Virus record (IMG/VR): IMGVR_UViG_3300007735_000974
Location: 3,884 to 67,883 of that record
Strand: one strand, 5' to 3'
DNA length: 64,000 nt
Source of the DNA: a virus
In this document: piece after piece, positions 255 to 22,264 of the stretch
How the letters are laid out: every line of letters starts with the position of its first letter
Numbering within the stretch: position 1 is the stretch's first letter
Notes under the pieces: model-generated
Database searches by the model: none
What the model saw: only the letters and a program-made list of their open reading frames with translations
What the model was told of the DNA's origin: nothing
Position numbers and translations under genes: made by a program

Positions 255-1497
255 TAATATGTTTTATGAAATTGAAAAATGCAGAGTTTGTGGAAATAGT
301 CACTTAATTTCTGTACTAGATCTTGGAGATCAATACATCTCTGGAATTTTTCCAAAAAATATTTCTGATGATTTTTACCGAGGACCTCTTACACTTGTGA
401 AGTGTGATGAGTCTAAAGGTGGTTGTGGACATGTTCAACTCAAACACACATTTGATTTGCCAACAATGTATGGTAATGAATATGGATATCGCTCTGGATT
501 GAATTCCAGTATGGTCAATCATCTTCAAGAAAAATATAAAAAAATTACTGATTTTTTGACTTTAAAGGAAAAAGATTTAGTCATTGATATTGCAGGCAAT
601 GATGGAACTTTTCTTGGATTTTTTCCTTCCTATCTAAGACTTATTAGTGTCGATCCAACTTCTAAAAAGTTTTCTAAGTATTATAAAGAACACGTAGGTT
701 ATATTGCTGACTTTTTTAGTGAAAAAACTTATAAGCAATTTCTTGGAGATGAAAAGGCAAAACTAGTTACTTCATTCTCCATGTTCTATGACCTGGAAGA
801 TCCTTGTCAGTTTGCAAGAGAAGTAAATTCTGTTCTTGACCCTCAAGATGGTGTTTGGGTTTTAGAACAAAGTTATATGCCTGAAATGTTACGTGTTAAT
901 TCGTTTGACACAATTTGTCATGAGCATTTGTCTTATTATGGAATGAGGCAATTGAAATATATCATGGACAAATCAAACTTTAAAATTATAGATTTTGAGT
1001 TTAATGATGTTAATGGTGGCAGTATCTCTTTGGTAGTTGCAAATAAAAATAGTAAATATGAAGAGGCAACTCAACGAGTGAATGATATTATTCAAGAAGA
1101 ACTTGATTTAAAACTTGACACCACTAAACCTTGGCAAGAATTTTCTGAACGTATTGAAGATTGTAAAAATAAGTTTTGGGAAATTGTCACTGATTATCAA
1201 AAACAGGGATTGAAAGTTGCTGCTCTTGGTGCAAGTACAAAGGGAAATGTAACTCTTCAAACTTGGAAAATTACACCAAAAGATATTGAAGTTGTTGGTG
1301 ATGTTAATCCAGACAAGGATGGATCTTATACTCCTGGAACTTGGATTCCAATTAAATCCGAAAACGCTGTTATTGATGATTATGACGTATTCGTAATTCT
1401 GCCTTGGCACTTTAGATCCTTTTTTGTTAGCAGTTCTAAATTTAAAGGAAAAAAATTATTGTTTCCTCTCCCAACCCCTCAAGTTGTAGTTGTTTGA
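247..1497 (+). CDS. NDP-hexose C-methyltransferase (Zn-finger, SAM-dependent, C-methyltransferase C-terminal domain)
   Basis: CRVCG...LVKC...C Zn motif, [11 protein letters not shown] motif, [19 protein letters not shown] and LPWHF, typical of sugar C3-methyltransferases. Start at 247 or 259. Confidence 0.85.
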
Positions 1498-1506
1498 TTT
1501 AAAATT

Positions 1507-2442
1507 ATGGAAAAAAATTCTAGGATATTTGTAGCTGGTCATAGAGGTCTTGTTGGTTCTGCAATTGTTAGAACACTTCTAGAAAATGGATATACCAATA
1601 TAGTTACTAGAACAAGAAGTGAAGTTGATCTCCTCAATCAACAGCAGGTTGAAGATTTCTTTAAAAATGAAAACATTGAATATGTGTTTGATGCTGCTGC
1701 CAGAGTAGGTGGTATTAATGCAAATAATGTTTATTCGGCTGAATTTGTGTATGAGAATATTCAAATTCAAACTAATCTAATTCATTATGCTTGGAAATAT
1801 GGCGTTAAAAAGTTTCTCTTTATTGGTTCTGTCTGCATTTATCCTAAGTATGCAGAGGTTCCAGTTAAAGAAGAATCTTTAATGACTGGATATCTAGAAC
1901 CAACAAATGATGCTTATGCTATTGCTAAAATTTCTGGAATTAAAATGCTTCAGGCATATCATAAACAGTATGGATTTAAAAGTGTCTCTCTAATGCCGTC
2001 CAACATTTATGGACCTGGAGATAATTTTCATCCAGAAAATGGGCATGTTATTCCTGCAATGATAACCAAGTTCAATAATTCCAATGGTAAGTCTGTTACT
2101 TTTTGGGGTGACGGTACGCCAATGAGAGAATTTTTATATTCTGACGATTTGGCAGATGCCTGTCTTTTTGCTATGGATAAATTTGAAAATGCCGAAGTTG
2201 TTAATGTGGGTTCTGGGGAGAATGTTAGTATCCTCAATCTTGCAAATACGGTTGCATCAATTGTTGGATATCATGGGGAAATTAATTGGGATACGACTCG
2301 TCCAAATGGAACTCCAAATCGACCACTAGACTATTCTAAAATGACTAGTCTTGGATGGAAACCAAAACATACTCTTCGTGATGGATTGAAAAAATCATAT
2401 CAATGGTTTACTGAAAATACTTTTTATGACAGTTCAAAATAA
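1507..2442 (+). CDS. fcl: GDP-L-fucose synthase
   Basis: AGHRGLVGSA, AARVGGI, GSVCIYP, YAIAK, WGDGTPMREFLY motifs. Confidence 0.95.
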   Translation: MEKNSRIFVAGHRGLVGSAIVRTLLENGYTNIVTRTRSEVDLLNQQQVEDFFKNENIEYVFDAAARVGGINANNVYSAEFVYENIQIQTNLIHYAWKYGVKKFLFIGSVCIYPKYAEVPVKEESLMTGYLEPTNDAYAIAKISGIKMLQAYHKQYGFKSVSLMPSNIYGPGDNFHPENGHVIPAMITKFNNSNGKSVTFWGDGTPMREFLYSDDLADACLFAMDKFENAEVVNVGSGENVSILNLANTVASIVGYHGEINWDTTRPNGTPNRPLDYSKMTSLGWKPKHTLRDGLKKSYQWFTENTFYDSSK

Positions 2443-2458
2443 TCTTGGCACTTAAAAA

Positions 2459-3169
2459 ATGAAATCAAAAACAGAATCAAAAGTCACATTTAATAGACTT
2501 TTAACCGAAGACGATGTTTCAGTATTCTCTGAAATAATTAAAAAAGAAAAGTACCCAGAAAAGGGATTTAGGCATAGAGAACTATGGAATGTTCCTGCTG
2601 GATTTTCAAAATGGGTTTCTGTTCTTGAGCAATTCAGATCTTTAAATAAAAATAATTTAAAGGTTGTGGAATTGGGTCCTGGTACTGGGGTTGTTCCTTA
2701 TATCATTGCCAGTTGGGGAAATGATGTCACTGGAATTGATATTGAAGTTATTGAAAATTGGTGCCCTAAAAATCTAATCAGGATGGTTATTGGAGACGCT
2801 TTATTGGAGATAAAAGAAATGGATAGTGAGAGTGTAGATGTTGTAACCGATCTTTGTGCTATACATGAATTCAATCCCGTAAGTAATGAAGAATTTAAAA
2901 ATGTTGGTCTAAAGCAAGTCGCAGATCAAATTTTTAGAATCTTGAAAAAGGGTGGGAAATTTTTCATGTCTACTGACGTTTCTCTTGTTTTCCCTCCATC
3001 ACAACCAGGTGGATTCCTTCTTCCAGAAGATTTGATTGATATTGTAGAATCATCTGGATTGAAGTTAACTAGTCCATATAAAAAGGAATACGAACAATCA
3101 GAATACAAACCAATCTATCAATCGGCAATTGGTTTGCATATTGCTACTTTCTCTTTTGAAAAACCATAA
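2459..3169 (+). CDS. Class I SAM-dependent methyltransferase
   Basis: VVELGPGTG motif I, VTGID, RILKKGG. Confidence 0.8.
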   Translation: MKSKTESKVTFNRLLTEDDVSVFSEIIKKEKYPEKGFRHRELWNVPAGFSKWVSVLEQFRSLNKNNLKVVELGPGTGVVPYIIASWGNDVTGIDIEVIENWCPKNLIRMVIGDALLEIKEMDSESVDVVTDLCAIHEFNPVSNEEFKNVGLKQVADQIFRILKKGGKFFMSTDVSLVFPPSQPGGFLLPEDLIDIVESSGLKLTSPYKKEYEQSEYKPIYQSAIGLHIATFSFEKP

Positions 3170-3170
3170 T

Positions 3171-4727
3171 ATGAAAATTGTTATTCCAATGTCTGGAATG
3201 AGCCGCAGATTTATAGACGCGGGATATCAAATTCCAAAGTATCTAATTCACGCTAACAATAAAAGAGTCATAGAGCATATTGTTGATTTATATCCTAAGG
3301 ATAGTAATTTTCTGTTTATTATAAATGATAAACATGAGCAGGAGACAGAGGTTGTAAATTTGTTGAATGATATTGTAAGTAATAAAACAATTGTAACTAT
3401 TGATTCTCATAAAAAAGGACCAGTATATACAGTTTCTCAAGCACTACAGCACATAGAAGATGATGAACAAGTAGTTGTTAATTACTGCGACTTTTCAATG
3501 TATTGGGATTATCAAGATTTTGAAAATTTTGTAGATGAAACTGAGTGTGATAGTTGTGTTGTTTGTTACACGGGATTTCATCCACACATGTTAGGTGGTG
3601 ATAATTATGCTTTCTGTAAAGTCAACTTGCACAATGACATATTGGAAATAAGGGAGAAGCAACCCTTTACCGACAATAAAATGTCTGAGTATGCTTCTAC
3701 TGGAACTTATTATTTTCGTAAAGGTGAATATGTTAAAAAATATTTTCAGCAGTTAATTGAAGAAGACGTAAATATCAATGGTGAATATTATGTAAGTCTT
3801 GTTCATAATTTAATGATAAGAGATAATCTTATAAACAAGGTTTATGAAGTTCCTCATATGTTACAATGGGGAACGCCACTTGATTTTGATATGTATCAAA
3901 AGTGGTCCAACTATTATGAAAAAACACTTCATGGGCAAAAGGAAATTTTTATTCCAAATACTGTCACTTTGATACCAATGGCAGGAGCTGGGAGTAGATT
4001 TTTAAAAGAAGGATATTCGGAACCAAAACCATTTATTTCGGTGAATGGTAAAAGAATGGTTGACCAAGCACTTCGTTGTCTGCCTAAAACTGATAAAACT
4101 ATTTTTGGTTGTTTACGTGGACACAGAAGATTCTCTATCCTTGGTAATATTGTATGGATTGATGATGTATTGCCAGGACAAGCTTGTACAACAGAACGTC
4201 TTGTAAATGAAATTGAGTCTGAATCAATATTGATTTCTGCCTGTGATAATGGTGTATTTTATGATGCTAATAAGTTTTTAGATTTGGTAAATGATGATGA
4301 AAATGATATAATTGTTTGGAGTTATAGGAACAATTATACAAGTTACTACAATCCAAATATGTATTCTTGGTTAGACATTGATGAAAATCAAAACGTCTTG
4401 AATGTAAATGTAAAAGAATTTAAAGGAACAAATCCTGTAGAAGAGTATGCTATTGTAGGAACAATGTTCTTTAGAAATAAGGACACTTATCTTGAACCTC
4501 TTCAACAACTTTATAATAAAAATAAGAGAACAAACAATGAGTTCTATATTGATAACTTATTAAATGAAGCTATAGAACTTGGATATAAAGTTAAAAATTT
4601 TGAAATAGATGAATATATTTGTTGGGGAACACCTAACGATTTAAAAACCTACGAGTATTGGCAAAGATTTTTTAATAAAGTTGATTGGCATCTTTATGAA
4701 TACGCAAAAGACTATTTTACCAATTGA
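3171..4727 (+). CDS. Tandem two-domain sugar nucleotidyltransferase-like protein
   Basis: Two IPMxGxxxRF...PK starts (IPMSGMSRRF, IPMAGAGSRF), two NGEYY/NNEFY motifs and two WGTP motifs. Confidence 0.85.
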   Translation: MKIVIPMSGMSRRFIDAGYQIPKYLIHANNKRVIEHIVDLYPKDSNFLFIINDKHEQETEVVNLLNDIVSNKTIVTIDSHKKGPVYTVSQALQHIEDDEQVVVNYCDFSMYWDYQDFENFVDETECDSCVVCYTGFHPHMLGGDNYAFCKVNLHNDILEIREKQPFTDNKMSEYASTGTYYFRKGEYVKKYFQQLIEEDVNINGEYYVSLVHNLMIRDNLINKVYEVPHMLQWGTPLDFDMYQKWSNYYEKTLHGQKEIFIPNTVTLIPMAGAGSRFLKEGYSEPKPFISVNGKRMVDQALRCLPKTDKTIFGCLRGHRRFSILGNIVWIDDVLPGQACTTERLVNEIESESILISACDNGVFYDANKFLDLVNDDENDIIVWSYRNNYTSYYNPNMYSWLDIDENQNVLNVNVKEFKGTNPVEEYAIVGTMFFRNKDTYLEPLQQLYNKNKRTNNEFYIDNLLNEAIELGYKVKNFEIDEYICWGTPNDLKTYEYWQRFFNKVDWHLYEYAKDYFTN

Positions 4728-5799
4728 GTATTGGAATTCTGGAAGAACAAGACTTATAAAAGAAAAAGATGAGAATGGCAGAGATATTGAGGTTGCATAC
4801 TTTTTCTCTTGCCAATTTGTAGGACTATCCAAGCATTATCCACAACCACTCATTTATTCTCACCAAACTCATAAACTACATCTTCCAACCAAGGAGATGT
4901 TTATGTCTCTTGGGAGAGGGACAGTATATGAGGAGACGATGGAATATGAAGTTGAAGTTCCAATGATCTTTAAGAACTTCTGCTCAGTTCCTGTATTTTA
5001 CTTTGTGTACAATGTGGCAAACTACTATCATTTCATTTATGATACATTGCCTTATCTCTATTCATACTTTAATGAGAAAGAGATTCATCCAGACCTGAAA
5101 CTTCTTGTAAGTCCTCCTGAGGGTAAAGACGATTTGTATCCCTTCGTATGGGAATGCCTGGAACTTTTGGGAATAGGTCGTAAGGACGTAGTGTTTCTCA
5201 ATCCAGATACCTTATATAATACGGTTGTAGTTGGTTCTTCATTAACTCACAATGGACTATCAAACACTCCGCCACATTCGGGGGTCTTTGATATTATTAA
5301 CCGTATGAAGGGTGACTATCAAGGACCAGAGAAGATTTATATCTCACGTAGAACTTGGTTACATAATAACTTTGAAAACATCGGCACCAACTACACAGAG
5401 CGTCGTCGTTGTGTGAATGAGGATGAAGTAGCAGAATTTTTTAAATCCCAGGGATATGAAGAAGTCTTCTGTGAAAATATGACAATGAAAGAAAAGATTG
5501 GACTCTTCAATTCTGCAAAGTATGTTGCTGGTCCTATTGGTGGTGGTATGTGTAACGTAATCTTTTCGCCACCAGAAACCAAGGTCATTTCAATCAACAG
5601 CCCTTTGTTCTTTGATATTAATACGCGCTTTGAGTATTCAATGATACACACACAACTTCATCACTTTAACGACACTGAGTTTGTTGAGAAGGTAGAAGAA
5701 AGTGTAGAGAGTGATGGTGCGCTTTCTATTTCTGGTGGTCTAAACTCACCTTGGAAGGTGGATCTAAATAAACTAAAAACATTTCTTAACAATGTCTGA
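4696..5799 (+). CDS. Glycosyltransferase family 61 (DUF563)-like protein
   Basis: NYYHF, KIYISR, RRCVNEDEV, and F..A..VAGPIGGGMCN resembling the GT61 C-terminal motif. Confidence 0.7.
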   Translation: MNTQKTILPIEYWNSGRTRLIKEKDENGRDIEVAYFFSCQFVGLSKHYPQPLIYSHQTHKLHLPTKEMFMSLGRGTVYEETMEYEVEVPMIFKNFCSVPVFYFVYNVANYYHFIYDTLPYLYSYFNEKEIHPDLKLLVSPPEGKDDLYPFVWECLELLGIGRKDVVFLNPDTLYNTVVVGSSLTHNGLSNTPPHSGVFDIINRMKGDYQGPEKIYISRRTWLHNNFENIGTNYTERRRCVNEDEVAEFFKSQGYEEVFCENMTMKEKIGLFNSAKYVAGPIGGGMCNVIFSPPETKVISINSPLFFDINTRFEYSMIHTQLHHFNDTEFVEKVEESVESDGALSISGGLNSPWKVDLNKLKTFLNNV

Positions 5800-6457
5800 A
5801 ATAATAGAACTAGCAAGAGAAATCAGTGAATACACTATCTGTGGTGAGGGTAATGTATCTGTAAGAGACGGAGAGAATACTTTTTTAATTAAGGCAAGTG
5901 GGACTAGTCTTCATACTCTATCTAATGAAGACCTGACACTATGTAATATCCATGGAGTTCAGTTAGATTCTTCTCATAAAAAACCAAGTATTGAAACTTC
6001 ATTTCACGCTTGGATTATGAGAACTTTTCCAGAGATAAACTTTATTGCTCATACTCACCCACCACACACAACTAAAATTCTCTGTTCTAATCAGTTATAT
6101 CAGTTTGCAAATCACCGTTGGTTCCCTGATCAGATTGTGAGAAATGGAACTAAGTCCTGTGTAGTTCCTTATGCACCACCTGGAAAGGCAATTTTAAAAC
6201 TTGTAGAAAAGCACGTATCTGCATTTGTTGATTATGAAGGATACTTTCCAAAGTTGATTTTATTGCAGAATCATGGTATAATCACAGCATCTGCATCTAA
6301 AAAAGATTGCGCTGCCGCAACCTTAATGTGTGAAAAATCTGCTGATATTTTTATTGGAGCAAAACTTCTAGGTGGAGTTAAGTTCCTGACTAAGCAAGAA
6401 GTCGCTGATGTCGATACCTGTCCAAATGAAAACTATAGAAGAAAACTCTATCAATGA
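5792..6457 (+). CDS. Class II aldolase/adducin family protein (FucA/RhaD/MtnB fold)
   Basis: GEGNVS, IKASG, PSIETSFH, HTH and LQNHG metal/phosphate motifs. Confidence 0.88.
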   Translation: MSEIIELAREISEYTICGEGNVSVRDGENTFLIKASGTSLHTLSNEDLTLCNIHGVQLDSSHKKPSIETSFHAWIMRTFPEINFIAHTHPPHTTKILCSNQLYQFANHRWFPDQIVRNGTKSCVVPYAPPGKAILKLVEKHVSAFVDYEGYFPKLILLQNHGIITASASKKDCAAATLMCEKSADIFIGAKLLGGVKFLTKQEVADVDTCPNENYRRKLYQ

Positions 6458-6765
6458 AAATCATTTATGTTGATATTGACGAAACCATTTGTCATCGGGA
6501 AACTTCTGTTGACTTTGGCACAACTCATGATTACACCAAAGCAAAACCTATCCCAGAGAATATAGAAAAGATTAATAAACTCTATGACGAAGGTCATACA
6601 ATAGTTTATTGGACTGCTCGTGGTTCTAGAAAGCAAATTGATTGGACAGAACTTACAAGTCAACAACTTGCTGAGTGGGGAGCGAAGTATCATGAGTTAA
6701 GAGTGGATAAACCTTTTTATGACTTATTCATTGAAGACAAATCATTACGGATTGAAGAATTATGA
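6454..6765 (+). CDS. Small HAD-superfamily phosphatase (capsule-biosynthesis type)
   Basis: DIDETI motif I, WTARG motif II, KP..DLFIEDK motifs III/IV. Confidence 0.82.
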   Translation: MKIIYVDIDETICHRETSVDFGTTHDYTKAKPIPENIEKINKLYDEGHTIVYWTARGSRKQIDWTELTSQQLAEWGAKYHELRVDKPFYDLFIEDKSLRIEEL

Positions 6766-7223
6766 AAATTATTTCTCATCGCGGAAACATTCGTGGTCCT
6801 GTACCTGACAAGGAAAATCGTCCTAGTTACATTGATTGTGCAATCGGTAATGGATATGATGTGGAAATTGACGTTCGTTCAATCAATGGTGAACTTTGGT
6901 TAGGTCACGATGAACCACAGTACAAGGTTGACCATAATTGGATAGATAAGCGTAGGCACTATTTGTGGTTACACTGTAAAAATATTGAAGCAGCAACTGA
7001 ATGTTGGGCATATCATTCATTTTGTCACTCGAATGATCCATTTGTCTATACATCCGTTGGAAAAATTTGGTTGCATAATGACTTAGAATCGGTTTTGTTG
7101 AATGATAACATTATCATACCTAGGATTAGTAAATCTGATTTGGAGTCTTTTAATAAGGATAAAACTTTAGGAACACCATTTGCTATCTGTACTGATTACC
7201 CCGCTATGATTGGAGAATACTGA
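6762..7223 (+). CDS. GDPD/PI-PLC-like phosphodiesterase domain protein
   Basis: ISHRGN, EN, DVEIDV, LGHD, ICTDY motifs. Confidence 0.75.
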   Translation: MKIISHRGNIRGPVPDKENRPSYIDCAIGNGYDVEIDVRSINGELWLGHDEPQYKVDHNWIDKRRHYLWLHCKNIEAATECWAYHSFCHSNDPFVYTSVGKIWLHNDLESVLLNDNIIIPRISKSDLESFNKDKTLGTPFAICTDYPAMIGEY

Positions 7224-7224
7224 A

Positions 7225-7989
7225 ATGACTAAAAAATTTGCTGTTTGTTTTTCTGGTTATCCCAGATTTGTTAGAAAACAATTCGAAAATATTAAGACTA
7301 ATTTTCTAGATGGTCTTGGAGATTATGACATCTATGCGATGTTTCAATGGCCTGAGGATTGGAAAAATACTTTAATGCATGTTAGTCATGACGACAAGTT
7401 TGAAACTAATGAAGTAGAAGATTTCAAAGAACTCTATGGACCTTTAAATCTTAAAAAGATTGCCACTATTCCACCTTATGACTTTAGTCATCTTGAATTT
7501 AATGGTAAAAATGCAGAACCAGATTTGGGTGGGGTTTCTGAAGAAATCTTGAGAGACCTCTTTTATAGACAAAAATGTCAGTTTCAAGGTATCGAAGATT
7601 GTATCAAACTTATTGACAACCCAAATGACTATCAATTTGTTGTCAGAATGAGAACGGATCTAGTCTTTCATTCAGAAGTAACTATGAAAGATTTAGAATC
7701 CAAAGTAATTATCAATCAAGACGGATATATTGCTGGAGCAGATAGACCAGCTTCAGATTGGTTCTTCATCACTCCAACAAATAAACTTGAGTTTTTTACT
7801 GAACTTTCTAAAATTGAAGAGCACTTTAAAGAAGGTGTTGTTGGGCATCACAGAATCATTGCCCAACTTGGTGAGAAGTATGGCATTGAATATCACGAGT
7901 TCAATATTCGAACACCCACAGCCACTGGAGGAGCGTCTGTTCTTTACAAAAAACCCACTGACAATTATAATGTAATTAGGAAGTTTTGA
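7225..7989 (+). CDS. Uncharacterised glycan-locus protein (paralog family with 7994 and 12768)
   Basis: AVCFSGYPR N-terminus and YQFVVRMRTD motif shared with two neighbours. Confidence 0.6.
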   Translation: MTKKFAVCFSGYPRFVRKQFENIKTNFLDGLGDYDIYAMFQWPEDWKNTLMHVSHDDKFETNEVEDFKELYGPLNLKKIATIPPYDFSHLEFNGKNAEPDLGGVSEEILRDLFYRQKCQFQGIEDCIKLIDNPNDYQFVVRMRTDLVFHSEVTMKDLESKVIINQDGYIAGADRPASDWFFITPTNKLEFFTELSKIEEHFKEGVVGHHRIIAQLGEKYGIEYHEFNIRTPTATGGASVLYKKPTDNYNVIRKF

Positions 7990-7993
7990 TAAG

Positions 7994-8770
7994 ATGAAAG
8001 TAGCTTTAATATTTTCTGGTCAACCCAGATTCGTAAAGGAGTGTGCTCCTTATTTAATTGAAAATATTGTTAGCAAATATGATGTAGATGTATTTGCTCA
8101 TTTGTGGTTTGATGAAAACCTATTGAAAACTCCTTATAAGTATGAAGGAAATTGGCCAACTCAAACTATTAGTCCAAATGCTTTAGAAACTTTTAAAGAA
8201 CTTTATAATCCTATCGGTCTTGAAGTTGAAGAAAGCATGTCATTTCAAGACGACAGCATGGACTTTGAAGCAAGTATGAGAAAATATAATGATTGGGCAA
8301 CACCTAATGCTCCAGACAATATGAAAAATGGAACAAAGGGTTTTATGAATTTGATTAAGTCAAATCAAATTTCATACTTTTATAGTCTGAACAAAGCAAA
8401 TCTTTTGAAGAAAAAGTTTGAATATCAAAATAACTTTAAGTATGATTGGGTTATCAGGGCAAGAACTGATACTGCACCACATACTCCTTTGGAACTTTCT
8501 AACTATAATCCAAATGCTGTAACATACACGAATATTAATAATCAAGAATCTGTTACTCCTGGATTAATTTGTGACTGGTTGAATTTTGGTAACTCATACG
8601 TTATGGACGTGTTTAATAGTTGTTTTCCCTGTTATGATCATCTTATTGAAGAATGTAAAAGAACAAATAATGGTGCTTGGTCTCCAGAACTAGTTCATAG
8701 AAAAATGGTTGATCTTTATAAAGTGAAAGCAGAAGGTCATTCTATTCCAGTATCATTGCCCAGATTTTAA
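7994..8770 (+). CDS. Uncharacterised glycan-locus protein (paralog family)
   Basis: KVALIFSGQPR, DVFAHLW, YDWVIRARTD. Confidence 0.6.
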   Translation: MKVALIFSGQPRFVKECAPYLIENIVSKYDVDVFAHLWFDENLLKTPYKYEGNWPTQTISPNALETFKELYNPIGLEVEESMSFQDDSMDFEASMRKYNDWATPNAPDNMKNGTKGFMNLIKSNQISYFYSLNKANLLKKKFEYQNNFKYDWVIRARTDTAPHTPLELSNYNPNAVTYTNINNQESVTPGLICDWLNFGNSYVMDVFNSCFPCYDHLIEECKRTNNGAWSPELVHRKMVDLYKVKAEGHSIPVSLPRF

Positions 8771-9483
8771 TGAATATTCTTATTCCTATGGCAGGTGAGG
8801 GAACACGTTTCCCCAGAGACACCTACAAAGTCCCAAAACCACTAATTAACGTTAATGGTTCTCCAATGATTCAAGTTGCTCTGGCATCTTTAGGATTAGT
8901 TGGAACTTATCATTTTGTTATTCGTAAAGACAGTTACTATGATCAGGTGTGCCATTTATTACACTCTATCTTTCCAGATTCAAAAATAATTAGTGTTGAC
9001 GAAACAACTTCTGGTCCAGCATCTAGTTGTCTTTTGTTTCGGGATTATATCAATAATGAAGATGAGTTAGTTGTTGCTAACTGCGATCAAATCATGTGGT
9101 GGGATCCAAATTTATTTCTTAATACTGCAAGATATTATAGGTATGACGGATTAGTTGTTACTTATACCACAACTACACCAAAGAATAGTTATGCCAAAAT
9201 TGATAAAATGGGATTTGTTCAGGAGATAAAAGAAAAAGAAGTTATTAGTGATGTTTCTTTAAATGGAATTCATTACTGGAGAAAAGGAAAATATTTTGTG
9301 CAAAGTGCAGAAAGTATGATACAATGTAAAGATACTGCTCCAAATGGTGAATTTTATGTTGGTCCGACATATAATTATATGATTAAACAGGGTTTGAAAG
9401 TTGGAATTCATCATATTCCAAACTATCAACATAATCCAGTTGGAGTCCCAGAGGATTTGAATTCTTTCTTGCAAAAATTATGA
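8770..9483 (+). CDS. Sugar nucleotidyltransferase-like protein
   Basis: ILIPMAGEGTRF...PKPLI, NCDQ, EIKEKEVIS, NGEFYV, VGVPED. Confidence 0.85.
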   Translation: MNILIPMAGEGTRFPRDTYKVPKPLINVNGSPMIQVALASLGLVGTYHFVIRKDSYYDQVCHLLHSIFPDSKIISVDETTSGPASSCLLFRDYINNEDELVVANCDQIMWWDPNLFLNTARYYRYDGLVVTYTTTTPKNSYAKIDKMGFVQEIKEKEVISDVSLNGIHYWRKGKYFVQSAESMIQCKDTAPNGEFYVGPTYNYMIKQGLKVGIHHIPNYQHNPVGVPEDLNSFLQKL

Positions 9484-9806
9484 ACGTTACAAAGATAAAA
9501 GATTATGTCCGTGGGTGGTTCATTGGAAACTTTGAACCCTCTTTGTTGAAGACAAGTGGTTTTGAAGTTGGCGTTCTTACCCATCCCAAAGGAGAGCAAT
9601 GGCCAGCACACTATCACAAAGAAACTATTGAATATAATGTTCTTGTTTCTGGTAAAATGACCGTCCAGGGAAAAGAGCTAAATAGTGGTGATGTATTTGT
9701 CTTTGATAAAGGAGAGATTGCAGATCCTGTTTTTCTTGAAGACTGTACTGTTGTTTGTGTGAAAGTCCCCTCCATTCCTTCTGATAAATTTGAGATTGAA
9801 AAATGA
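9480..9806 (+). CDS. Cupin-domain protein
   Basis: HYHKETIEYNVLVSG cupin metal motif; GWFIGNFEP N-terminus. Confidence 0.8.
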   Translation: MNVTKIKDYVRGWFIGNFEPSLLKTSGFEVGVLTHPKGEQWPAHYHKETIEYNVLVSGKMTVQGKELNSGDVFVFDKGEIADPVFLEDCTVVCVKVPSIPSDKFEIEK

Positions 9807-11041
9807 AATTTTTTAGAGAACTAACTGAATACGAAAAAGATCGTTGTGTAGTTGCAACTTACTACATTGAATCTTATGAAAACCTTGGCACTTTGAGAGA
9901 TGCTGCTTGGAATCTTGCCATTGGACAAAGCGTTGGTAACCCAAAAGTTCGTAATCGTTGGGAAAGCGATGAACTATTTGAGCTAGCATCTTGTGTGATT
10001 TACGCTGACGAAAATGAACTTTCTCAGCAAACCAAAGGGCAAGTAAAAATTGGTTTCCCTAAAGTTAATACTGACTGGGAGGGAGATGGAATTTCTCACC
10101 TTCTTTGTCAATTGATGGGTGGTCAGTTAGACATTGATGTATTCAAAGTTTGCAGACTGCAGAAGTTAGAGTTTCCTGCAGATGTTGAAGCATCATTCCT
10201 TGGACCTAAAAATGGTATTGATGGAATTAGAAAGTTTGTTAATCGTTATGACAAACCTCTTTCTGGTGCGATTGTAAAACCAAAAACTGGTATCTCTCCA
10301 CAAACTCTCTCCGAGATGGTGAAAGAACTTCTTGACGGAGGCGTAGACTTTATTAAAGAAGATGAGATTCTTTCTAATCCCTCCTTCTGTCGTCTTGAAG
10401 ATCGTGTAGAACTTATTTCTAACATTGTTAATAATTGTGGGAGAAATGTAATCTATACATTCTGCATTAATGGTGATCATCATACCATTCTTGATCGTGC
10501 TAAATTTGTTGCAGAGAATGGTGGTAACGGTATTCATATTAATTTCTGGTCAGGTCTTGGAGTTTATAACTCTGTAAGAAAAATGAACCTACCATTGTTT
10601 ATCCATTATCAGAAGAGTGGAGACAAAATCCTTACGGATAAACGCCACGCATTTGGAATAGATTGGGACGTTCTTTGTGACCTTGCTGGTCTCTGTGGTG
10701 TGGATACGATTCACGCTGGAATGTGGGGTGGATATCTAAGCGATGACGAAAATGAACTTCGTCAAACCATGGCAACACTTCATAAGAGAAATGTTCTTCC
10801 CGCACTGAGCTGTGGTATGCATCCAGGCATTGTCAACACGACCGCAGAGAAGTTTGGTACAGACTTCCTTGCTAATTGTGGTGGAGCAGTTCATGGGCAC
10901 CCAGGTGGCACTCTGGCAGGTGCTCTGGCAATGCGTCAGGCAATCGACAAAACTCCTGGTCCAGAGTTTCGTGCTGCTATTGATAAATGGGGGTATGAAA
11001 CTGGAGGAGGTTCTTTACCTGAGTGGGTTTTAGATTTTTGA
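9803..11041 (+). CDS. RuBisCO-like protein (form IV, RLP)
   Basis: FLGPKNGIDG, IVKPKTG (K175/K177), GGVDFIKEDE (K201/D203/E204), IHAG (H327), SCG (S379), GGAVHGHPGG...GA.AMRQA. No small-subunit gene in the window. Confidence 0.93.
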   Translation: MKFFRELTEYEKDRCVVATYYIESYENLGTLRDAAWNLAIGQSVGNPKVRNRWESDELFELASCVIYADENELSQQTKGQVKIGFPKVNTDWEGDGISHLLCQLMGGQLDIDVFKVCRLQKLEFPADVEASFLGPKNGIDGIRKFVNRYDKPLSGAIVKPKTGISPQTLSEMVKELLDGGVDFIKEDEILSNPSFCRLEDRVELISNIVNNCGRNVIYTFCINGDHHTILDRAKFVAENGGNGIHINFWSGLGVYNSVRKMNLPLFIHYQKSGDKILTDKRHAFGIDWDVLCDLAGLCGVDTIHAGMWGGYLSDDENELRQTMATLHKRNVLPALSCGMHPGIVNTTAEKFGTDFLANCGGAVHGHPGGTLAGALAMRQAIDKTPGPEFRAAIDKWGYETGGGSLPEWVLDF

Positions 11042-11118
11042 TTCCCTCTTTTAAAACGAATATATAAAAAAGAATTTTATTTACTGAAGATTATTTAATT
11101 TAACAAGGAGATTAATTC

Positions 11119-11760
11119 ATGAAGTGGCAAACTGACCTTATTAAGGACATTAGAAGCAATACGCCTTATGATGATACTGAAGCAGGTATTAATCATTTTC
11201 TACATATTTGGCCTGGTATTGAAAATGATCCAGGAGTTTTAAATCCATTTGATGGTGTTGAGTGTAGTGAGTGTAATAAAGCAGCACTGCTTGAACAATT
11301 TTTGAAGGTTCGGGATAACTGTGCGGCAATTCTTGAAATTGGAATTGGTAGAAATGGTGAGAACTCTTTTGCTCATGTGTTTTTCAAAAATAAAAAAGAC
11401 GAAACCAAGTACGTTGGAATTGACATTGAAGATCGTAGTTGGTTGATTGATTGTGGTGAAAACATCTACACTATTCAAGGTAGTAGTTCAAACTATGAGG
11501 AGAATGTAGAAATTTTTAAAACTATGGGTGTAGATAAATTTGATTTTATTTTCATTGATGGTGATCATAGTGTAAATCAAGTTCTTAGAGATTGGGAATA
11601 TTCAAATCTTCTAAATGATGGTGGAATTGTTGGATTCCATGATACTAGTCATCATACTGGACCTTATCTATTCATTAAAAATTTGAATAAAGATATTTGG
11701 GATGTAGTTGAAAATGCTTGCCCACAAGATTATGGCATTGGATTTGCCAGAAAAAAATAA
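11119..11760 (+). CDS. Class I SAM-dependent methyltransferase (Methyltransf_24-like)
   Basis: LEIGIG, FDFIFIDGDHS, GGIVGFHD. Confidence 0.85.
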   Translation: MKWQTDLIKDIRSNTPYDDTEAGINHFLHIWPGIENDPGVLNPFDGVECSECNKAALLEQFLKVRDNCAAILEIGIGRNGENSFAHVFFKNKKDETKYVGIDIEDRSWLIDCGENIYTIQGSSSNYEENVEIFKTMGVDKFDFIFIDGDHSVNQVLRDWEYSNLLNDGGIVGFHDTSHHTGPYLFIKNLNKDIWDVVENACPQDYGIGFARKK

Positions 11761-11763
11761 ATC

Positions 11764-12771
11764 ATGAATCATATTGAAAATTTAAAATCCCAATATAAGG
11801 TAATTGTCTGGGGATTTAAACCAAACGAACAAGGCATTCATAAAAATACTGTAGGTTATGTTTGGGGTGGGTATTATAAAGGTTTCAAATCATTAGGGTT
11901 TGAAACCCACTGGATGTGTGATGATGATTATGATTCATCTCTAGATTATTCTAACTGCATTTTTATTGCTGAAGCATGGGACAGTAATAAAATGCCAATT
12001 GAAAATACATCCATTTATTACGTTCATAATGCTTATGATCCCTCAAAATATATCGGTAAAGTAAAAAAATTTATCGATATGAGATATAATCAAAAGTTTA
12101 TGAATAATCCAAATTATGTTTTTGAACGTAATAAAGACGAAGATGTTAAGGTAGGTCCTTGTTGCTATTATCAAGAATCGACTAATAAAATAATTCATTT
12201 AAAAAATGGATTTGTTGATTATGATATAGATGACTTTGACAAAATCTATACTAATTGGGCAACTGATTTATTGCCGGAAGAAATGAATGAGGATGATATT
12301 TACTTAGAGAGAGAAAATCTTATTGTTTTTCTTGGCACAATTTATTCTGATCAGTATACTAATATACCAGAATTACAAGAATTTGCAGAAGTTTGTAAAA
12401 CAAATAATGTTGATTTTCTAGTTAATCCATATTCTTATGGATCAGATCAAATTTCTGTAGATGACTATATCTCAAATTACAAAAGATCATTGTTTGGTCT
12501 TGACCTAAGAGGAAAAGATAATAGAGAAACTGGATATATTCCGTGCCGAGTATTTAAGAATGCAAGTTATGGTCTTTTGAGCACCACTAATTCCGAAGAA
12601 ATTTTCAAAGAAATGGACGGATATTGTGTATACAATCCATCTGTAACTCAACTATTTTATGATGCAATGGAGAAAAGAACAGATTTGGATTTTGTAAAGG
12701 AATCTTTTAATTATGTAAAAGAAAATCATACTTATATTAATAGATGTTCTGATTTGCTTAAAGTACTATGA
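11764..12771 (+). CDS. Putative GT-B glycosyltransferase-like protein
   Basis: C-terminal PCRVFK..SYG...VKENHTYINR resembles CgeB/GT1_2-type tails; glycan-locus context. Confidence 0.5.
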   Translation: MNHIENLKSQYKVIVWGFKPNEQGIHKNTVGYVWGGYYKGFKSLGFETHWMCDDDYDSSLDYSNCIFIAEAWDSNKMPIENTSIYYVHNAYDPSKYIGKVKKFIDMRYNQKFMNNPNYVFERNKDEDVKVGPCCYYQESTNKIIHLKNGFVDYDIDDFDKIYTNWATDLLPEEMNEDDIYLERENLIVFLGTIYSDQYTNIPELQEFAEVCKTNNVDFLVNPYSYGSDQISVDDYISNYKRSLFGLDLRGKDNRETGYIPCRVFKNASYGLLSTTNSEEIFKEMDGYCVYNPSVTQLFYDAMEKRTDLDFVKESFNYVKENHTYINRCSDLLKVL

Positions 12772-13490
12772 AAGTAGCATTTTGTTTTTGTGGACAACCA
12801 AGAGACGTTAAAAACAGTCTTGATAATATAAAAAAAGCATGGGGAACATATCAAGAATTAGATTTTTTCTTCCATACTTGGATACCAGAAGATAGAACAC
12901 CATATCGTATTGATACGCCATCAGATTCTTATTTTACTGGCATTGAATCATATTTAATTGAAAGTTTGAACCCAGTCAAGTGTGAATTTCAAAGACAAAT
13001 AACTTTTAGAAATCAATACAGAGATTCTGTGCATTGGCCAATCCGTAGTGCCTTTATCCCTAATCCGTCTCAAAATATTCAGTCCTTCTTTTATTCACTG
13101 AAGAAGGCAAATGATTTGAAACGGCAACATGAAATTGAAAATAATTTTCGATATGATTGTGTAATTAGATGTAGATTTGACTACATCTTCAATAAAAAGT
13201 ATAATGTTGAAGACTTTGATTTAAATTATCTAAACGTAAAGGGTGATTGTAAGCATACTGAATATGCTATCAATGACCATGTTGCATTATCAAACAGCGA
13301 AAATATGGATTTATATTCTACCGTGATTGATAATATGCAGAAGTATTATATGGAAGGTATTGAATTTAATACTGAAGTTATCTTAGGATATAATGCAATG
13401 ATGCAGGGTTTGGAATATCATAAAACTCTGGGTGATAATGATGAGTCATACGTTTCTACAAAAGTTGAAAGGAATAGAGTTTTCTTATGA
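12768..13490 (+). CDS. Uncharacterised glycan-locus protein (paralog family)
   Basis: KVAFCFCGQPR, DFFFHTW, YDCVIRCRFD. Confidence 0.6.
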   Translation: MKVAFCFCGQPRDVKNSLDNIKKAWGTYQELDFFFHTWIPEDRTPYRIDTPSDSYFTGIESYLIESLNPVKCEFQRQITFRNQYRDSVHWPIRSAFIPNPSQNIQSFFYSLKKANDLKRQHEIENNFRYDCVIRCRFDYIFNKKYNVEDFDLNYLNVKGDCKHTEYAINDHVALSNSENMDLYSTVIDNMQKYYMEGIEFNTEVILGYNAMMQGLEYHKTLGDNDESYVSTKVERNRVFL

Positions 13491-19307: not shown

Positions 19308-20627
<1,320 letters not shown>

Positions 20628-22246: not shown

Positions 22247-22264
22247 TCATCAGGAGACAGAACA

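What the first reader, a model, noticed from the sequence alone, without database searches (positions are those of the whole stretch)
3171..11041. Phage sugar-modification module built around a RuBisCO-like protein (nucleotidyltransferases, aldolase, HAD, GDPD-like, cupin, RLP)
Seen: a contiguous, mostly translationally coupled run of a double nucleotidyltransferase, GT61, class II aldolase, HAD phosphatase, GDPD-like protein, two unknown paralogs, a nucleotidyltransferase, a cupin and a form IV RuBisCO-like protein. It sits in a T4-like cyanophage glycan island, and the last three genes overlap by ATGA/TAATG. Established: RLPs act on ketose-phosphate-like substrates (methionine-salvage enolase/isomerase; branched-sugar catabolism), and nucleotidyltransferase+HAD modules occur in bacterial capsule loci that carry ketose side groups. 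Inference: this is an undescribed pathway in which a RuBisCO fold works biosynthetically to make an unusual ketose or branched sugar for virion or host-surface glycosylation, perhaps from Calvin/pentose-phosphate pools (the phage also encodes CP12). Alternative: aldolase+RLP+HAD+cupin match the folds of the MtnB/W/X/D methionine-salvage set, and the phage has ahcY and speD. However, no mtnK/mtnA is in the window and the nucleotidyltransferase coupling argues for glycan synthesis.
Basis: partly seen in the sequence, partly recalled or inferred. Interest (0 to 1): 0.92.

Follow-up and report, generated by a model that had tools for sequence, protein, structure and literature searches.

The report
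Phage RuBisCO-like sugar-activation gene cassette
A T4-like cyanophage carries a RuBisCO relative that has lost the residues needed to fix CO2 and that travels with, and is sometimes fused to, a sugar-activating enzyme and a small cupin in glycan gene clusters of phages, bacteria and tiny archaea, which points to an untested sugar-building job for the RuBisCO fold.

Summary
The ten genes are real, intact and tightly coupled at 3171-11041, inside a glycan island of a T4-like cyanophage contig.

They are two modules, not one pathway.
- **Module A (3171-7223):** tandem nucleotidyltransferase, GT61, class II aldolase, mini-HAD and mini-GDPD. It is syntenic with cultured phage Bellamy, which has no RLP.
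- **Module B (8770-11041):** nucleotidyltransferase (NT), cupin and RuBisCO-like protein (RLP). This is the conserved unit.

In 121 loci (80 viral, 40 cellular, the window) an NT lies within 3 kb of the RLP in 111. A cupin or a mini-GDPD lies there in about half of the RLP lineages. The aldolase and GT61 lie there in none of the other 120 loci.

Two metagenomic proteins fuse RLP, NT and cupin. The RLP keeps the enolisation residues and lacks those for CO2 addition and cleavage. It fails every curated RuBisCO/RLP model.

A parallel cassette (HAD, small kinase, NT::RpiB fusion, cupin, mini-GDPD) is mutually exclusive with the RLP. Legionella places LicD beside RLP-NT.

Best reading (0.6): an enolising ketose-phosphate isomerase that feeds an NDP-activated glycan unit. 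The product is unknown.

Phage RLPs are in print (Jaffe 2019) without a function. This scan found the same cassette before on other DNA.

The parts
3171..4727 (+). Module A: tandem (double) nucleotidyltransferase, 518 aa from ATG 3171
   Evidence: Pfam NTP_transf_3 9.2e-12 in two stretches. phrog_3980 2.4e-169. Both halves align to the NT domain of P0123. 70.8% nt identity to Bellamy genes 209-210. Start ATG one base after the upstream stop.
4696..5799 (+). Module A: GT61-family glycosyltransferase
   Evidence: Pfam Glyco_transf_61 5.2e-19. In-frame ATG at 4696. Syntenic with Bellamy gene 210. Found in 0 of 80 viral RLP loci.
5792..6457 (+). Module A: class II aldolase/epimerase-family protein
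   Evidence: Pfam Aldolase_II 1.9e-29. The best NCBIfam models are L-ribulose-5-P 4-epimerase (74 bits, cut-off 251) and ribulose-1-P aldolase (67 bits, cut-off 300); MtnB scores 49 (cut-off 226). All are below cut-off. Found in 0 of 120 other RLP loci. Same position as the Bellamy 'aldolase' gene 211.
6454..6765 (+). Module A: 103-aa cap-less HAD phosphatase
   Evidence: DxDxT motif in the translation. HAD_PNKP 8.3e-5 and TIGR01689 EcbF-BcbF 3.7e-5, both below cut-off. phrog_1238 1.5e-30. ATGA overlaps on both sides.
6762..7223 (+). Miniature GDPD-like phosphodiesterase (153 aa). This is the only copy in the window, and by similarity it is the module A type.
   Evidence: Invariant H6 R7 N19 E35 D37 H49 in 32 sequences. 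Profile against solved GDPDs 4.5e-5. AlphaFold pLDDT 90.2. Foldseek top hits are GDPDs, 1v8e E 1.2e-4, TMq 0.56. 65% identical to Bellamy gene 213 and 30-43% identical to the RLP-adjacent copies.
7225..7989 (+). SGQPR-motif / DUF7796-like protein, paralog 1 (putative transferase, function unknown)
   Evidence: phrog_13607 5.6e-38. Member of cluster cl5. Alignment A5 has invariant G9, R12, R157 and D159. ATG at 7225.
7994..8770 (+). SGQPR-motif / DUF7796-like protein, paralog 2
   Evidence: phrog_13607 1.1e-48. Pfam DUF7796 1.8e-6. The nearest Atlas clusters are viral and are auto-named capsular polysaccharide or glycosyltransferase proteins. No solved relative by sequence. Not LicD-like by hhalign.
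8770..9483 (+). Module B: sugar-phosphate nucleotidyltransferase (237 aa), the near-universal partner of the RLP
   Evidence: Pfam NTP_transferase 1.8e-8. GxGxRF...PKPL and EK motifs. Best solved relative is 4evw, 3.3e-33, an uncharacterised NDP-sugar pyrophosphorylase. Lies within 3 kb of the RLP in 111 of 121 loci and 47 of 53 lineages.
9480..9806 (+). Module B: 108-aa metal-type monocupin
   Evidence: H44-x-H46...E51...G58 conserved in 21 sequences. AlphaFold pLDDT 96.9. Foldseek gives generic small cupins, including archaeal phosphomannose isomerases. Lies near the RLP in 73 of 121 loci and 25 of 53 lineages.
9803..11041 (+). Module B: RuBisCO-like protein (412 aa), non-carboxylating
   Evidence: Pfam RuBisCO_large 2e-43. 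Below every NCBIfam cut-off. The residue pattern was read against C. necator form I CbbL. 230 viral relatives and 40 cellular loci. The split from 4 outgroup rows has 100/100 support.
11119..11760 (+). Methyltransf_24 methyltransferase, a frequent neighbour of the cassette
   Evidence: Pfam 1.7e-7. A homologue is present in 34 of 80 viral loci. It sits here where close relatives carry the RLP-adjacent GDPD-like gene.
12768..13490 (+). SGQPR-motif / DUF7796-like protein, paralog 3
   Evidence: Pfam DUF7796 6.2e-5. Same cluster cl5 as 7225-7989 and 7994-8770.

Best explanation
The functional unit is the three-gene block NT-cupin-RLP (8770-11041). Elsewhere it usually carries a miniature GDPD-like phosphodiesterase as a fourth member.

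Proposed pathway:
1. The RLP acts as a Mg2+-dependent enolising isomerase or epimerase. It reshapes a common ketose phosphate, most likely a ketose carrying one phosphate next to the carbonyl, or a pentulose phosphate.
2. Where the cupin is present, it performs a second isomerisation or epimerisation.
3. The nucleotidyltransferase joins the product to a nucleotide.
4. The activated unit is transferred to a glycan by neighbouring transferases. Candidates are the GT61 and SGQPR-family proteins here, LicD in Legionella, and GT2, GT17 and GT61 in SAR11.

The RLP-type cassette does, without a kinase and a phosphatase, the job that a parallel cassette does with HAD + small kinase + RpiB fused to the homologous NT.

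Module A (3171-7223) is a second, independent sugar-activation and transfer unit in the same island.

**Shown:** gene content, synteny, fusions, residue pattern, mutual exclusivity.
**Inferred:** reaction type, order of steps, glycan target.
**Unknown:** substrate, product, nucleotide, and the role of the GDPD-like protein.
For: 1. **Linkage.** Unbiased ORF clustering of 121 loci gives 53 RLP lineages at 85% identity. An NT lies within 3 kb in 111 of 121 loci and 47 of 53 lineages. The mini-GDPD does so in 26 of 53 lineages and the cupin in 25 of 53. No other family exceeds 15 of 53. Of the 40 cellular loci, 36 have an NT. The four without are a 3.1-kb contig, a 1.6-kb contig, one contig that ends inside the RLP, and the 31%-identical outgroup L121.
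2. **Fusion.** P0122 (813 aa) and P0123 (817 aa) read RLP 1-390, NT 398-637, cupin 711-810.
3. **Residues.** Read against form I CbbL in 23 family rows, with spinach numbering recalled from memory. K175, K177, K201, D203, E204, S379 and G381 are kept in 23 of 23. H327 and G403/G404 are kept in 22 of 23. Changed positions: E60 to G, T65 to N, W66 to P, N123 to G (followed by a conserved Q or H), H294 to Q, R295 to K or R, H298 to D or I, K334 to Y. By established RuBisCO mechanism (recalled), this keeps enolisation and removes CO2 addition and hydration/cleavage.
4. **Glycan context.** Gmd lies upstream. A C-methyltransferase, an epimerase, and GT61, GT4, GT11, GT6 and GT25 are in the island. 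SAR11 loci carry GT17, GT61 and a CMP-sugar cytidylyltransferase. LicD (3e-43) sits divergently beside RLP-NT in 4 of 4 Legionellaceae loci. A full-length GDPD (2.4e-21) is present in 8 loci, mostly DPANN.
5. **Displacement.** 30 of 30 viral loci with the NT::RpiB fusion carry the PfkB-like gene. 29 carry the HAD, 29 a cupin (45% identical to the window's) and 26 a mini-GDPD. None carries an RLP. Conversely, 0 of 80 viral and 0 of 40 cellular RLP loci carry the RpiB domain, the kinase or that HAD.
6. **Known precedent.** Phages build NDP-pentose by isomerase, kinase, HAD phosphatase and NT in the Afh/UDP-arabinofuranose pathway (PMC13326640, passages read).
7. **Weak support.** Contigs from three RNA libraries of three studies cover the cupin-RLP region, and one of them (X18) also covers part of the NT gene. 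In two of them the contig runs on past the RLP stop into a GDPD-like gene start. The tool warns that DNA can be present in such libraries, and I laid no silent control stretch.
Against: - There is no biochemical datum for any member. Substrate, product and nucleotide are unknown.
- About half of the RLP lineages lack a detectable cupin or mini-GDPD near the RLP, so only RLP+NT is general.
- The role of the GDPD-like protein is unexplained.
- The NT resembles sugar-1-phosphate transferases, yet an RLP product would carry a non-anomeric phosphate. No kinase was recognised in the island; the two 320-335-aa ORFs without any family hit stay open.
- In Legionella the genes form a small islet between housekeeping genes, not an LPS cluster.
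- The cupin tree shows only that RpiB-type cupins are one tight clade. It does not resolve whether that clade nests inside the RLP-type.
- Sampling is biased. Only the best 80 of 230 viral matches were examined, and loci were found through peptide patterns of this protein.
- Phage sugar cassettes can serve DNA modification instead of glycans.
Confidence: 0.6

Rival explanations
1. One reading: all ten genes (3171-11041) form one pathway. The aldolase builds a ketose-1-phosphate from DHAP. The RLP and cupin reshape it, the HAD and GDPD trim phosphates, the two NTs activate it and GT61 transfers it.
For: - All genes are co-oriented and abut or overlap.
- Class II aldolases make ketose-1-phosphates, the substrate class of characterised RLPs (established knowledge, recalled).
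- The aldolase's second-best NCBIfam model is ribulose-1-phosphate aldolase.
- The window lacks the RLP-adjacent GDPD copy that close relatives have, so it may borrow module A's copy.
Against: - Aldolase and GT61 accompany the RLP in 0 of 80 viral loci. The HAD does so in 1 of 80 viral and 2 of 40 cellular loci.
- The block NT2x-GT61-aldolase-HAD-GDPD occurs in the same order in Bellamy, which has no RLP by tblastn.
- Two paralogous genes of unknown function separate the blocks.
Confidence: 0.12
2. Methionine or SAM by-product salvage. The RLP and cupin act like the DeepYkr RLP and the cupin methylsulfurylase of the MTA-isoprenoid shunt, or like MtnW and MtnD together with the aldolase (MtnB) and HAD (MtnX). 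They would recycle MTA or 5'-deoxyadenosine made during infection.
For: - An adjacent RLP-cupin pair is the hallmark of the MTA-isoprenoid shunt (PMC5893883, passages read).
- The phage encodes ahcY and speD.
- The four folds match MtnB, MtnW, MtnX and MtnD.
Against: - MtnW models score 169 (cut-off 409) and 125 (cut-off 513.6). MtnB models score 49 (cut-off 226) and 46 (cut-off 137).
- The position where MtnW carries its catalytic lysine (recalled) is Gly here.
- No MtnA-family gene is on the 67.9-kb contig, which is a fragment.
- The constant partner is a nucleotidyltransferase, which no salvage route needs. It is fused to the RLP in two proteins.
- Aldolase and HAD do not co-travel with the RLP.
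- The neighbours are glycosyltransferases.
- Membership in the DeepYkr clade could not be tested, because no reference sequence was on hand.
Confidence: 0.08
3. The activated sugar is a donor for hypermodification of phage DNA rather than for a glycan, as in arabinosyl-hydroxycytosine phages.
For: T4-like phages build NDP-pentoses with isomerase, kinase, HAD and NT for DNA arabinosylation (PMC13326640). The target of the cyanophage island has never been shown.
Against: - The same RLP-NT pair sits in cellular genomes next to LicD, GT2, GT17 and GT61.
- The island here carries Gmd, sugar methyltransferases and five GT families.
- I did not see or search for a base-hydroxylating thymidylate-synthase homologue beside the cassette.
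Confidence: 0.06
4. A carbon-metabolism auxiliary gene. The RLP acts on ribulose-1,5-bisphosphate or its misfire products to redirect host Calvin-cycle carbon, independently of its neighbours.
For: The best-scoring curated model is form III RuBisCO (199.8 bits). The phage carries CP12 and psbA.
Against: - The residues recalled as binding the second phosphate and CO2 are changed.
- The family occurs in SAR11, Legionella and other heterotrophs.
- Linkage and fusion to the NT argue for a joint pathway.
Confidence: 0.04

Closest known systems
'Form IV-like' RuBisCO-related proteins of phages and Beckwithbacteria (Jaffe, Castelle, Dupont, Banfield, Mol Biol Evol 2019, PMC6389311; abstract and passages read)
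   Same: Phage-encoded, some on Myoviridae contigs from IMG/VR. Highly divergent from other RLPs, with only part of the key residues kept. Function was left open.
   Different: The paper gives no gene-neighbourhood or pathway reading in the passages I read. I could not check identity of the families sequence by sequence, because its supplements are closed. The NT, cupin and GDPD linkage, the fusions and the RpiB-type alternative cassette are not mentioned there.
DeepYkr RLP (5-methylthioribulose-1-P 1,3-isomerase) with adjacent cupin methylsulfurylase, the MTA-isoprenoid shunt of Rhodospirillum rubrum and Rhodopseudomonas palustris (PMC5893883, passages read)
   Same: An RLP next to a small cupin. 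The RLP acts as an isomerase that moves a carbonyl along a ketose phosphate. The product (DXP) feeds a pathway whose later step uses a cytidylyltransferase (recalled).
   Different: That pathway is salvage, fed by MtnP and MtnA, and is not linked or fused to a nucleotidyltransferase. It does not sit among glycosyltransferases. Clade membership was not tested here. No MtnA is on this contig.
3-oxo-isoapionate-4-phosphate decarboxylase OiaX and related RLPs of acid-sugar catabolic operons
   Same: These are the nearest annotated relatives in the plasmid collection, at 24-32% identity. They have the same fold and the same metal triad.
   Different: They sit beside a four-carbon acid-sugar kinase, TIM and RpiB-like isomerases in catabolic operons. 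OiaX keeps H294, R295 and K334 and lacks K177 and H327, the opposite pattern. The OiaX model scores 155 against a cut-off of 700. They are separated from the NT-linked clade by a 100/100 branch.
Isomerase-kinase-HAD phosphatase-nucleotidyltransferase routes: ADP-heptose (recalled) and phage UDP-arabinofuranose Afh pathway (PMC13326640, passages read)
   Same: The logic is the same: a central ketose phosphate becomes an NDP-sugar in a phage. The parallel NT::RpiB cassette follows this logic and shares NT, cupin and mini-GDPD families with the RLP cassette.
   Different: The RLP cassette has no kinase and usually no HAD. An RLP stands where the isomerase stands. The cupin and GDPD-like proteins have no counterpart in those pathways.
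lic-type phospho-alcohol decoration (LicC cytidylyltransferase + LicD transferase; function recalled)
   Same: In 4 of 4 Legionellaceae loci a LicD-family gene lies beside RLP-NT. The NT profile weakly matches LicC (1jyk, 5e-4).
   Different: There is no choline kinase or transporter. An RLP would have to supply the phosphorylated unit. LicD is absent from the phage loci, and the SGQPR family is not LicD-like.

Membership tests
RuBisCO large-subunit superfamily | Match to the catalytic-domain model above its curated cut-off | tested here: met
   PF00016 149.2 bits against a cut-off of 30.1. 99 solved chains match at E <= 0.001.
Bona fide RuBisCO (forms I-III) | Full catalytic set, including K334, E60, N123 and H294 (roles recalled) | tested here: not met
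   K334 to Y, E60 to G, N123 to G and H294 to Q in 23 of 23 family rows aligned to C. necator CbbL. rubisco_III scores 199.8 against a cut-off of 497.45.
Bona fide RuBisCO (forms I-III) | Activation and metal site K201, D203, E204, plus K175 | tested here: met
   KEDE and KPK motifs are invariant in 23 of 23 rows.
MtnW / YkrW DK-MTP-1-P enolase | Score above the equivalog cut-offs | tested here: not met
   NF007095 168.6 against 409. TIGR03332 125 against 513.6.
MtnW / YkrW DK-MTP-1-P enolase | Genomic company of mtnA, mtnK, mtnB, mtnX and mtnD | tested here: not met
   No IF-2B/MtnA match on the contig, which is a fragment. Aldolase and HAD do not co-occur with the RLP elsewhere.
DeepYkr RLP (MTRu-1-P 1,3-isomerase) | Clade membership in a tree with reference sequences | not tested
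   No reference DeepYkr sequence could be fetched. No R. rubrum or R. palustris RLP is named among the 60 best solved chains listed.
DeepYkr RLP (MTRu-1-P 1,3-isomerase) | Adjacent small cupin | tested here: met
   The cupin overlaps the RLP start by ATGA. A cupin lies near the RLP in 73 of 121 loci. Homology of this cupin to the methylsulfurylase was not tested.
OiaX/OiaC-type RLP | Score above the cut-off and a neighbouring acid-sugar kinase | tested here: not met
   NF042437 155 against 700. No such kinase cluster appeared among the neighbours, unlike.
Phage 'form IV-like' RLPs of Jaffe et al. 2019 | Phage-borne, divergent from the RLP clades, key residues partly kept | tested here: inconclusive
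   The features agree. Direct comparison of sequences was impossible because the supplements are closed.
GDPD (glycerophosphodiester phosphodiesterase) | Catalytic HR...EN...E-x-D...H motif | tested here: met
   H6, R7, N19, E35, D37 and H49 are invariant and E18 nearly so. The profile aligns this stretch to solved GDPDs.
GDPD (glycerophosphodiester phosphodiesterase) | Full-length TIM barrel and a Pfam GDPD match | tested here: not met
   The protein has 153 aa against 217-250 in the solved GDPDs matched. No Pfam hit at E <= 0.01. TM normalised to the target is 0.36-0.42. Full-length GDPDs do accompany the RLP in 8 loci.
Sugar-phosphate nucleotidyltransferase (RmlA/GalU/MurU-like) | N-terminal GxGxR...K signature and the family fold | tested here: met
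   G9, F14 and K23 plus E155-K156 are conserved. 59 solved NTs match at E <= 0.001. All NCBIfam equivalogs are below cut-off, so the substrate is undefined.
Isomerase-kinase-phosphatase-NT sugar activation (ADP-heptose / Afh type) | An anomeric kinase in the cassette | tested here: not met
   No kinase family was found in 29 island ORFs scanned. No PfkB-like homologue is in the 120 other RLP loci. ORFs 11764-12771 and 13487-14455 have no family hit.

The most novel reading that the evidence does not exclude
A clade of the RuBisCO superfamily is a biosynthetic enzyme. In one enolisation-driven step it converts a central ketose phosphate into the precursor that a dedicated nucleotidyltransferase activates. 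It thereby replaces the isomerase + kinase + phosphatase trio of classical NDP-sugar routes. The product would be a so far undescribed nucleotide-linked keto- or deoxy-pentose (or polyol-phosphate) unit. It would be attached through LicD-, GT61- or SGQPR-type transferases to surface glycans of SAR11, Legionella, DPANN archaea and cells infected by aquatic T4-like phages.
Probability: 0.3. Interest if true: 0.85.

Novelty: new variant of a known kind. Interest (0 to 1): 0.68.

Why it matters
- Every characterised RuBisCO-like protein works in salvage or catabolism. A glycan-building role would add a new functional class to one of the best-studied enzyme folds.
- It would assign a job to the large 'form IV-like' phage clade that has had none since 2019.
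- The cassette is abundant: 230 viral stretches in IMG/VR, plus SAR11.
- It occurs in cultured Legionella species, so the question can be tested at the bench now.
- The mutually exclusive RpiB-type cassette in cultured cyanophages (Bellamy, SynMITS9220M01) offers a natural comparison that could reveal the shared product.
- It would also bear on what cyanophage glycan islands decorate, which is unknown.

Tried and rejected
- **RLP in cultured phages.** tblastn of the RLP against 50,697 phage records found no match. The tool notes that the window's own record may be left out.
- **SGQPR/DUF7796 family.** hhalign against LicD gave probability 0.2. The profile against the PDB gave only chance-level hits, E 0.64 and above. 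The Atlas gave viral clusters with automatic names only. Its function stays unknown.
- **Cupin.** Foldseek gave 257 hits at E <= 0.001, all generic cupins, so no specific function follows.
- **Cupin tree.** It was meant to show whether RpiB-type cupins nest inside the RLP-type. 17 of its 30 inner branches are unsupported, so it shows only one clean split.
- **Long forms.** The search gave 3 proteins. P0124 (724 aa) has an RLP plus about 330 residues with no family hit.
- **Literature searches.**
  - 'rubisco-like protein' + cyanophage: 5 papers, none on this cassette.
  - 'rubisco-like' + viral + 'auxiliary metabolic': 1 paper, Jaffe 2019.
  - 'rubisco-like' + nucleotidyltransferase + polysaccharide: 0 papers.
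  - 'rubisco-like' / cupin / cytidylyltransferase, at least 2 of 3: 28 papers. None of the 15 listed holds 'rubisco-like' together with cytidylyltransferase and cupin, and the RLP-cupin papers concern methionine salvage.
  - On these searches the NT-linked reading is not in print. Subscription journals are not covered.
  - PMC12168267 mentions RLPs only for bookkeeping.
- **RNA-library contigs.** Parts of 6400-11800 have no cover in the RNA runs. That says nothing about expression.
- **Not done.**
  - A tree with MtnW, DeepYkr, Photo and form II/III references, because no such sequences could be fetched.
  - The 150 weaker viral matches were not examined.
  - The supplements of Jaffe et al. 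2019 may hold the phage RLP sequences and a gene map (fig. S1) and could not be seen.

Full report
**What is there**

The window is bases 3884-67883 of a 67,883-base IMG/VR viral record. Megablast of 30000-54000 hits 68 phage records, 64 of them named Synechococcus phages, over gp26, PhoH, the ssDNA-binding protein and other genes. psbA, ahcY, speD and CP12 are present.

GC is even over the region, 0.33-0.37 against a window range of 0.31-0.42. The same cassette sits in 230 other viral stretches. A chimera with host DNA is therefore unlikely.

From at least Gmd, just upstream of the window, to GT25 at 17695, the + strand is a glycan island. It holds a C-methyltransferase, an epimerase, methyltransferases, and GT61, GT4, GT11, GT6 and GT25.

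The family assignments stand and so do the overlaps. The 'GDPD-like' call, which Pfam misses, holds on three counts:
- a conserved HR...EN...E-x-D...H motif;
- a profile match to solved GDPDs at 4.5e-5;
- a confident model (pLDDT 90) whose best structural matches are GDPDs.

At 153 residues the protein is a miniature of that fold.

**Two modules, not one**

tblastn of the window's proteins on 80 viral loci found through the RLP (the best 80 of 230) gave these counts:

| Window protein | Viral loci with a homologue (of 80) |
|---|---|
| NT | 76 |
| GDPD-like | 68 |
| Cupin | 66 |
| Aldolase | 0 |
| GT61 | 0 |
| HAD | 1 |

Hits of the tandem NT (75 loci) are mostly cross-hits on the single NT gene.

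I then clustered all ORFs of at least 70 aa in 121 loci (80 viral, 40 cellular, and the first 22 kb of the window; L001 was left out because it is the window's own DNA). This gave 53 RLP lineages at 85% identity.
- An NT lies within 3 kb in 47 of 53 lineages.
- The mini-GDPD does so in 26.
- The cupin does so in 25.
- Nothing else exceeds 15.

Genes 3171-7223 (tandem NT, GT61, aldolase, HAD, GDPD) lie in the same order in cultured phage Bellamy as genes 209-213. The tandem NT and GT61 genes share 70.8% nucleotide identity with Bellamy genes 209-210. Bellamy has no RLP.

The window's GDPD-like protein is 65% identical to Bellamy's. It is only 30-43% identical to the copies that follow the RLP elsewhere. 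Close relatives of this phage carry a GDPD-like gene directly after the RLP. Two RNA-library contigs run on from the RLP stop into one. Here a methyltransferase stands in that place.

**The conserved unit and its reach**

The typical viral order is NT, cupin, RLP, GDPD-like.

The RLP family also occurs in cellular genomes:
- a complete Pelagibacter genome and many SAR11 single-cell assemblies;
- Verrucomicrobia and Azospirillum oleiclasticum;
- three Legionella species and a Tatlockia MAG;
- Francisellaceae, Turneriella, Elusimicrobia and Bacteroidota;
- DPANN archaea.

An NT lies beside the RLP in 36 of these 40 loci. The four exceptions are two contigs of 3.1 and 1.6 kb, one contig that ends inside the RLP, and a 31%-identical outgroup RLP.

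Two metagenomic proteins fuse RLP, NT and cupin in one chain.

In a tree of 23 chosen family members and 4 outgroups (form I CbbL, OiaX, a haloarchaeal RLP, L121), the family is split off with 100/100 support. The viral rows fall with one SAR11 row and one Verrucomicrobia row.

**What the RLP can and cannot do**

I aligned the family to C. necator CbbL and read the classical positions, using spinach numbering recalled from memory.
- **Kept:** the metal and carbamate triad K201, D203, E204, together with K175, K177, S379 and G381, in all 23 rows; H327 and G403/G404 in 22 of 23.
- **Changed:** E60 to Gly, N123 to Gly (followed by a conserved Gln or His), H294 to Gln, R295 to Lys or Arg, H298 to Asp or Ile, and K334 to Tyr.

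By the established mechanism (recalled), this retains enolisation and one phosphate site. It removes CO2 addition and the hydration/cleavage base.

Every curated model is missed by a wide margin:

| Curated model | Score (bits) | Cut-off (bits) |
|---|---|---|
| Form III RuBisCO | 200 | 497 |
| MtnW (NF007095) | 169 | 409 |
| MtnW (TIGR03332) | 125 | 514 |
| OiaX | 155 | 700 |

OiaX-type RLPs are the nearest annotated relatives on plasmids, at 24-32% identity. They show the opposite residue pattern and sit in catabolic operons with an acid-sugar kinase.

**Clues to the pathway**

1. *A parallel cassette.* Bellamy and SynMITS9220M01 carry HAD, a PfkB-like small kinase, a 385-aa NT::RpiB fusion, a cupin 45% identical to the window's, an SGQPR-family gene and a mini-GDPD.
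   - In 30 IMG/VR loci found with the fusion, 30 have the kinase, 29 the HAD, 29 the cupin, 26 the GDPD-like gene and 0 an RLP.
   - None of the 120 RLP loci has the RpiB domain, the kinase or that HAD.
   - The RLP thus stands where an aldose-ketose isomerase, plus a kinase and a phosphatase, stands in a cassette that shares its other parts.
   - That cassette follows the isomerase-kinase-phosphatase-NT logic used by phages for UDP-arabinofuranose.
2. *LicD in Legionellaceae.* A LicD-family transferase lies divergently beside RLP-NT in 4 of 4 Legionellaceae loci. This hints at transfer of a phosphorylated unit from a CDP-type donor (LicD function recalled).
3. *Full-length GDPDs.* They accompany the RLP in 8 loci, mostly DPANN.
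4. *The NT.* It has the sugar-phosphate transferase signature. Its only close solved relative is uncharacterised.
5. *The cupin.* It has a metal-binding motif but no specific structural match.

**Reading and rivals**

I commit at 0.6 to an enolising isomerase or epimerase that prepares a ketose-phosphate-derived unit for activation by the NT and use in a glycan.
- The single ten-gene pathway gets 0.12.
- Methionine or SAM by-product salvage gets 0.08. The RLP-cupin pair of the MTA-isoprenoid shunt is a real parallel. The NT linkage, the scores and the missing MtnA speak against it.
- A DNA-modification donor gets 0.06.
- A carbon-metabolism role gets 0.04.

**Occurrence and expression**

- Near-identical DNA is held by an estuary metagenome run of a study other than the possible source (X4; 6 of 11 laid pieces at 99% identity or more).
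- Contigs from three RNA libraries of three studies (one freshwater, two riverine) cover the cupin-RLP region; one of them (X18) also covers part of the NT gene.
- This is weak evidence of transcription. Contigs cannot exclude DNA carry-over, and I laid no control stretch.

**Novelty**

Phage RLPs were reported in 2019 without a function. My four searches found nothing in print on the NT-linked cassette.

This scan has described the same cassette repeatedly on other DNA, and the NT::RpiB cassette as well. The lead to the Afh paper came from one of those notes.

For this window I add:
- the split into two modules;
- the missing RLP-adjacent GDPD copy;
- the counted mutual exclusivity with the RpiB-type cassette;
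- the LicD and full-length GDPD neighbours;
- the residue map against a form I sequence.

Noticed in passing
window 17817-19304 (+): A 495-aa ORF with an SLH domain and an OprB-type carbohydrate-selective porin domain (Pfam 1e-8 and 1.6e-13). It lies in the only GC-rich stretch of the window (0.415). It looks like a cyanobacterial outer-membrane porin gene carried by the phage.
   Followed up: no
window 19374-20627, 34748-35074, 53116-53334, 28063-29145: Auxiliary metabolic genes: ahcY (AdoHcyase 1.6e-64), speD (AdoMet_dc 1.9e-35), CP12 (3.2e-15) and psbA (5.8e-89).
   Followed up: partly
L154 3091-4137 (contig bases upstream of the window) and window 229-3169: GDP-mannose 4,6-dehydratase (2.8e-155) is followed by a sugar C-methyltransferase, an epimerase/reductase and a methyltransferase. 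This is a separate route, probably to a C-methylated 6-deoxy sugar, at the start of the island.
   Followed up: partly
L122 (Bellamy 162488-163645), L123, L124-L153: A 385-aa fusion of a nucleotidyltransferase with an RpiB/LacAB isomerase, annotated 'phosphatase'. It heads a conserved cassette of HAD, PfkB-like kinase, NT::RpiB, cupin and mini-GDPD in cultured and uncultured marine cyanophages.
   Followed up: yes
L113-L116 (Legionella maceachernii, nautarum, drozanskii; a Tatlockia MAG): A compact islet made of a carboxymuconolactone-decarboxylase-family gene, a 328-aa unknown, LicD, and divergently RLP-NT. In L113 it lies between purD/purN and housekeeping genes and is not part of a large LPS cluster. 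These are cultured, tractable carriers.
   Followed up: partly
L050-L057, L060, L072 and L084 (complete Pelagibacter genome): A cupin-less variant ordered GDPD-like, NT, RLP. In nine of the ten viral loci (all but L072, whose contig ends inside the RLP) it is followed by a 242-aa protein with no family. The viral row L053 pairs with Pelagibacter L084 at 100/99 in the RLP tree. These 'viral' contigs may be pelagiphages or SAR11 fragments.
   Followed up: no
L096-L107 (SAR11 single cells, DPANN MAGs): Two nucleotidyltransferase genes flank the RLP, one on each side. This recalls the tandem NT of module A.
   Followed up: no
window 11764-12771 and 13487-14455 (+): Two ORFs of 335 and 322 aa with no Pfam hit. 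They recur with the island in about 7 of 80 viral loci. They are candidates for missing functions such as a kinase or transferase.
   Followed up: no
window 21557-22915 (+): A Peptidase_C39-like protein (2e-13) lies directly before a phage lysozyme (9e-22).
   Followed up: no
P0124 (724 aa, metagenomic): An RLP of this family (51% identical) is fused to about 330 C-terminal residues that match no Pfam family and none of the cassette proteins.
   Followed up: partly
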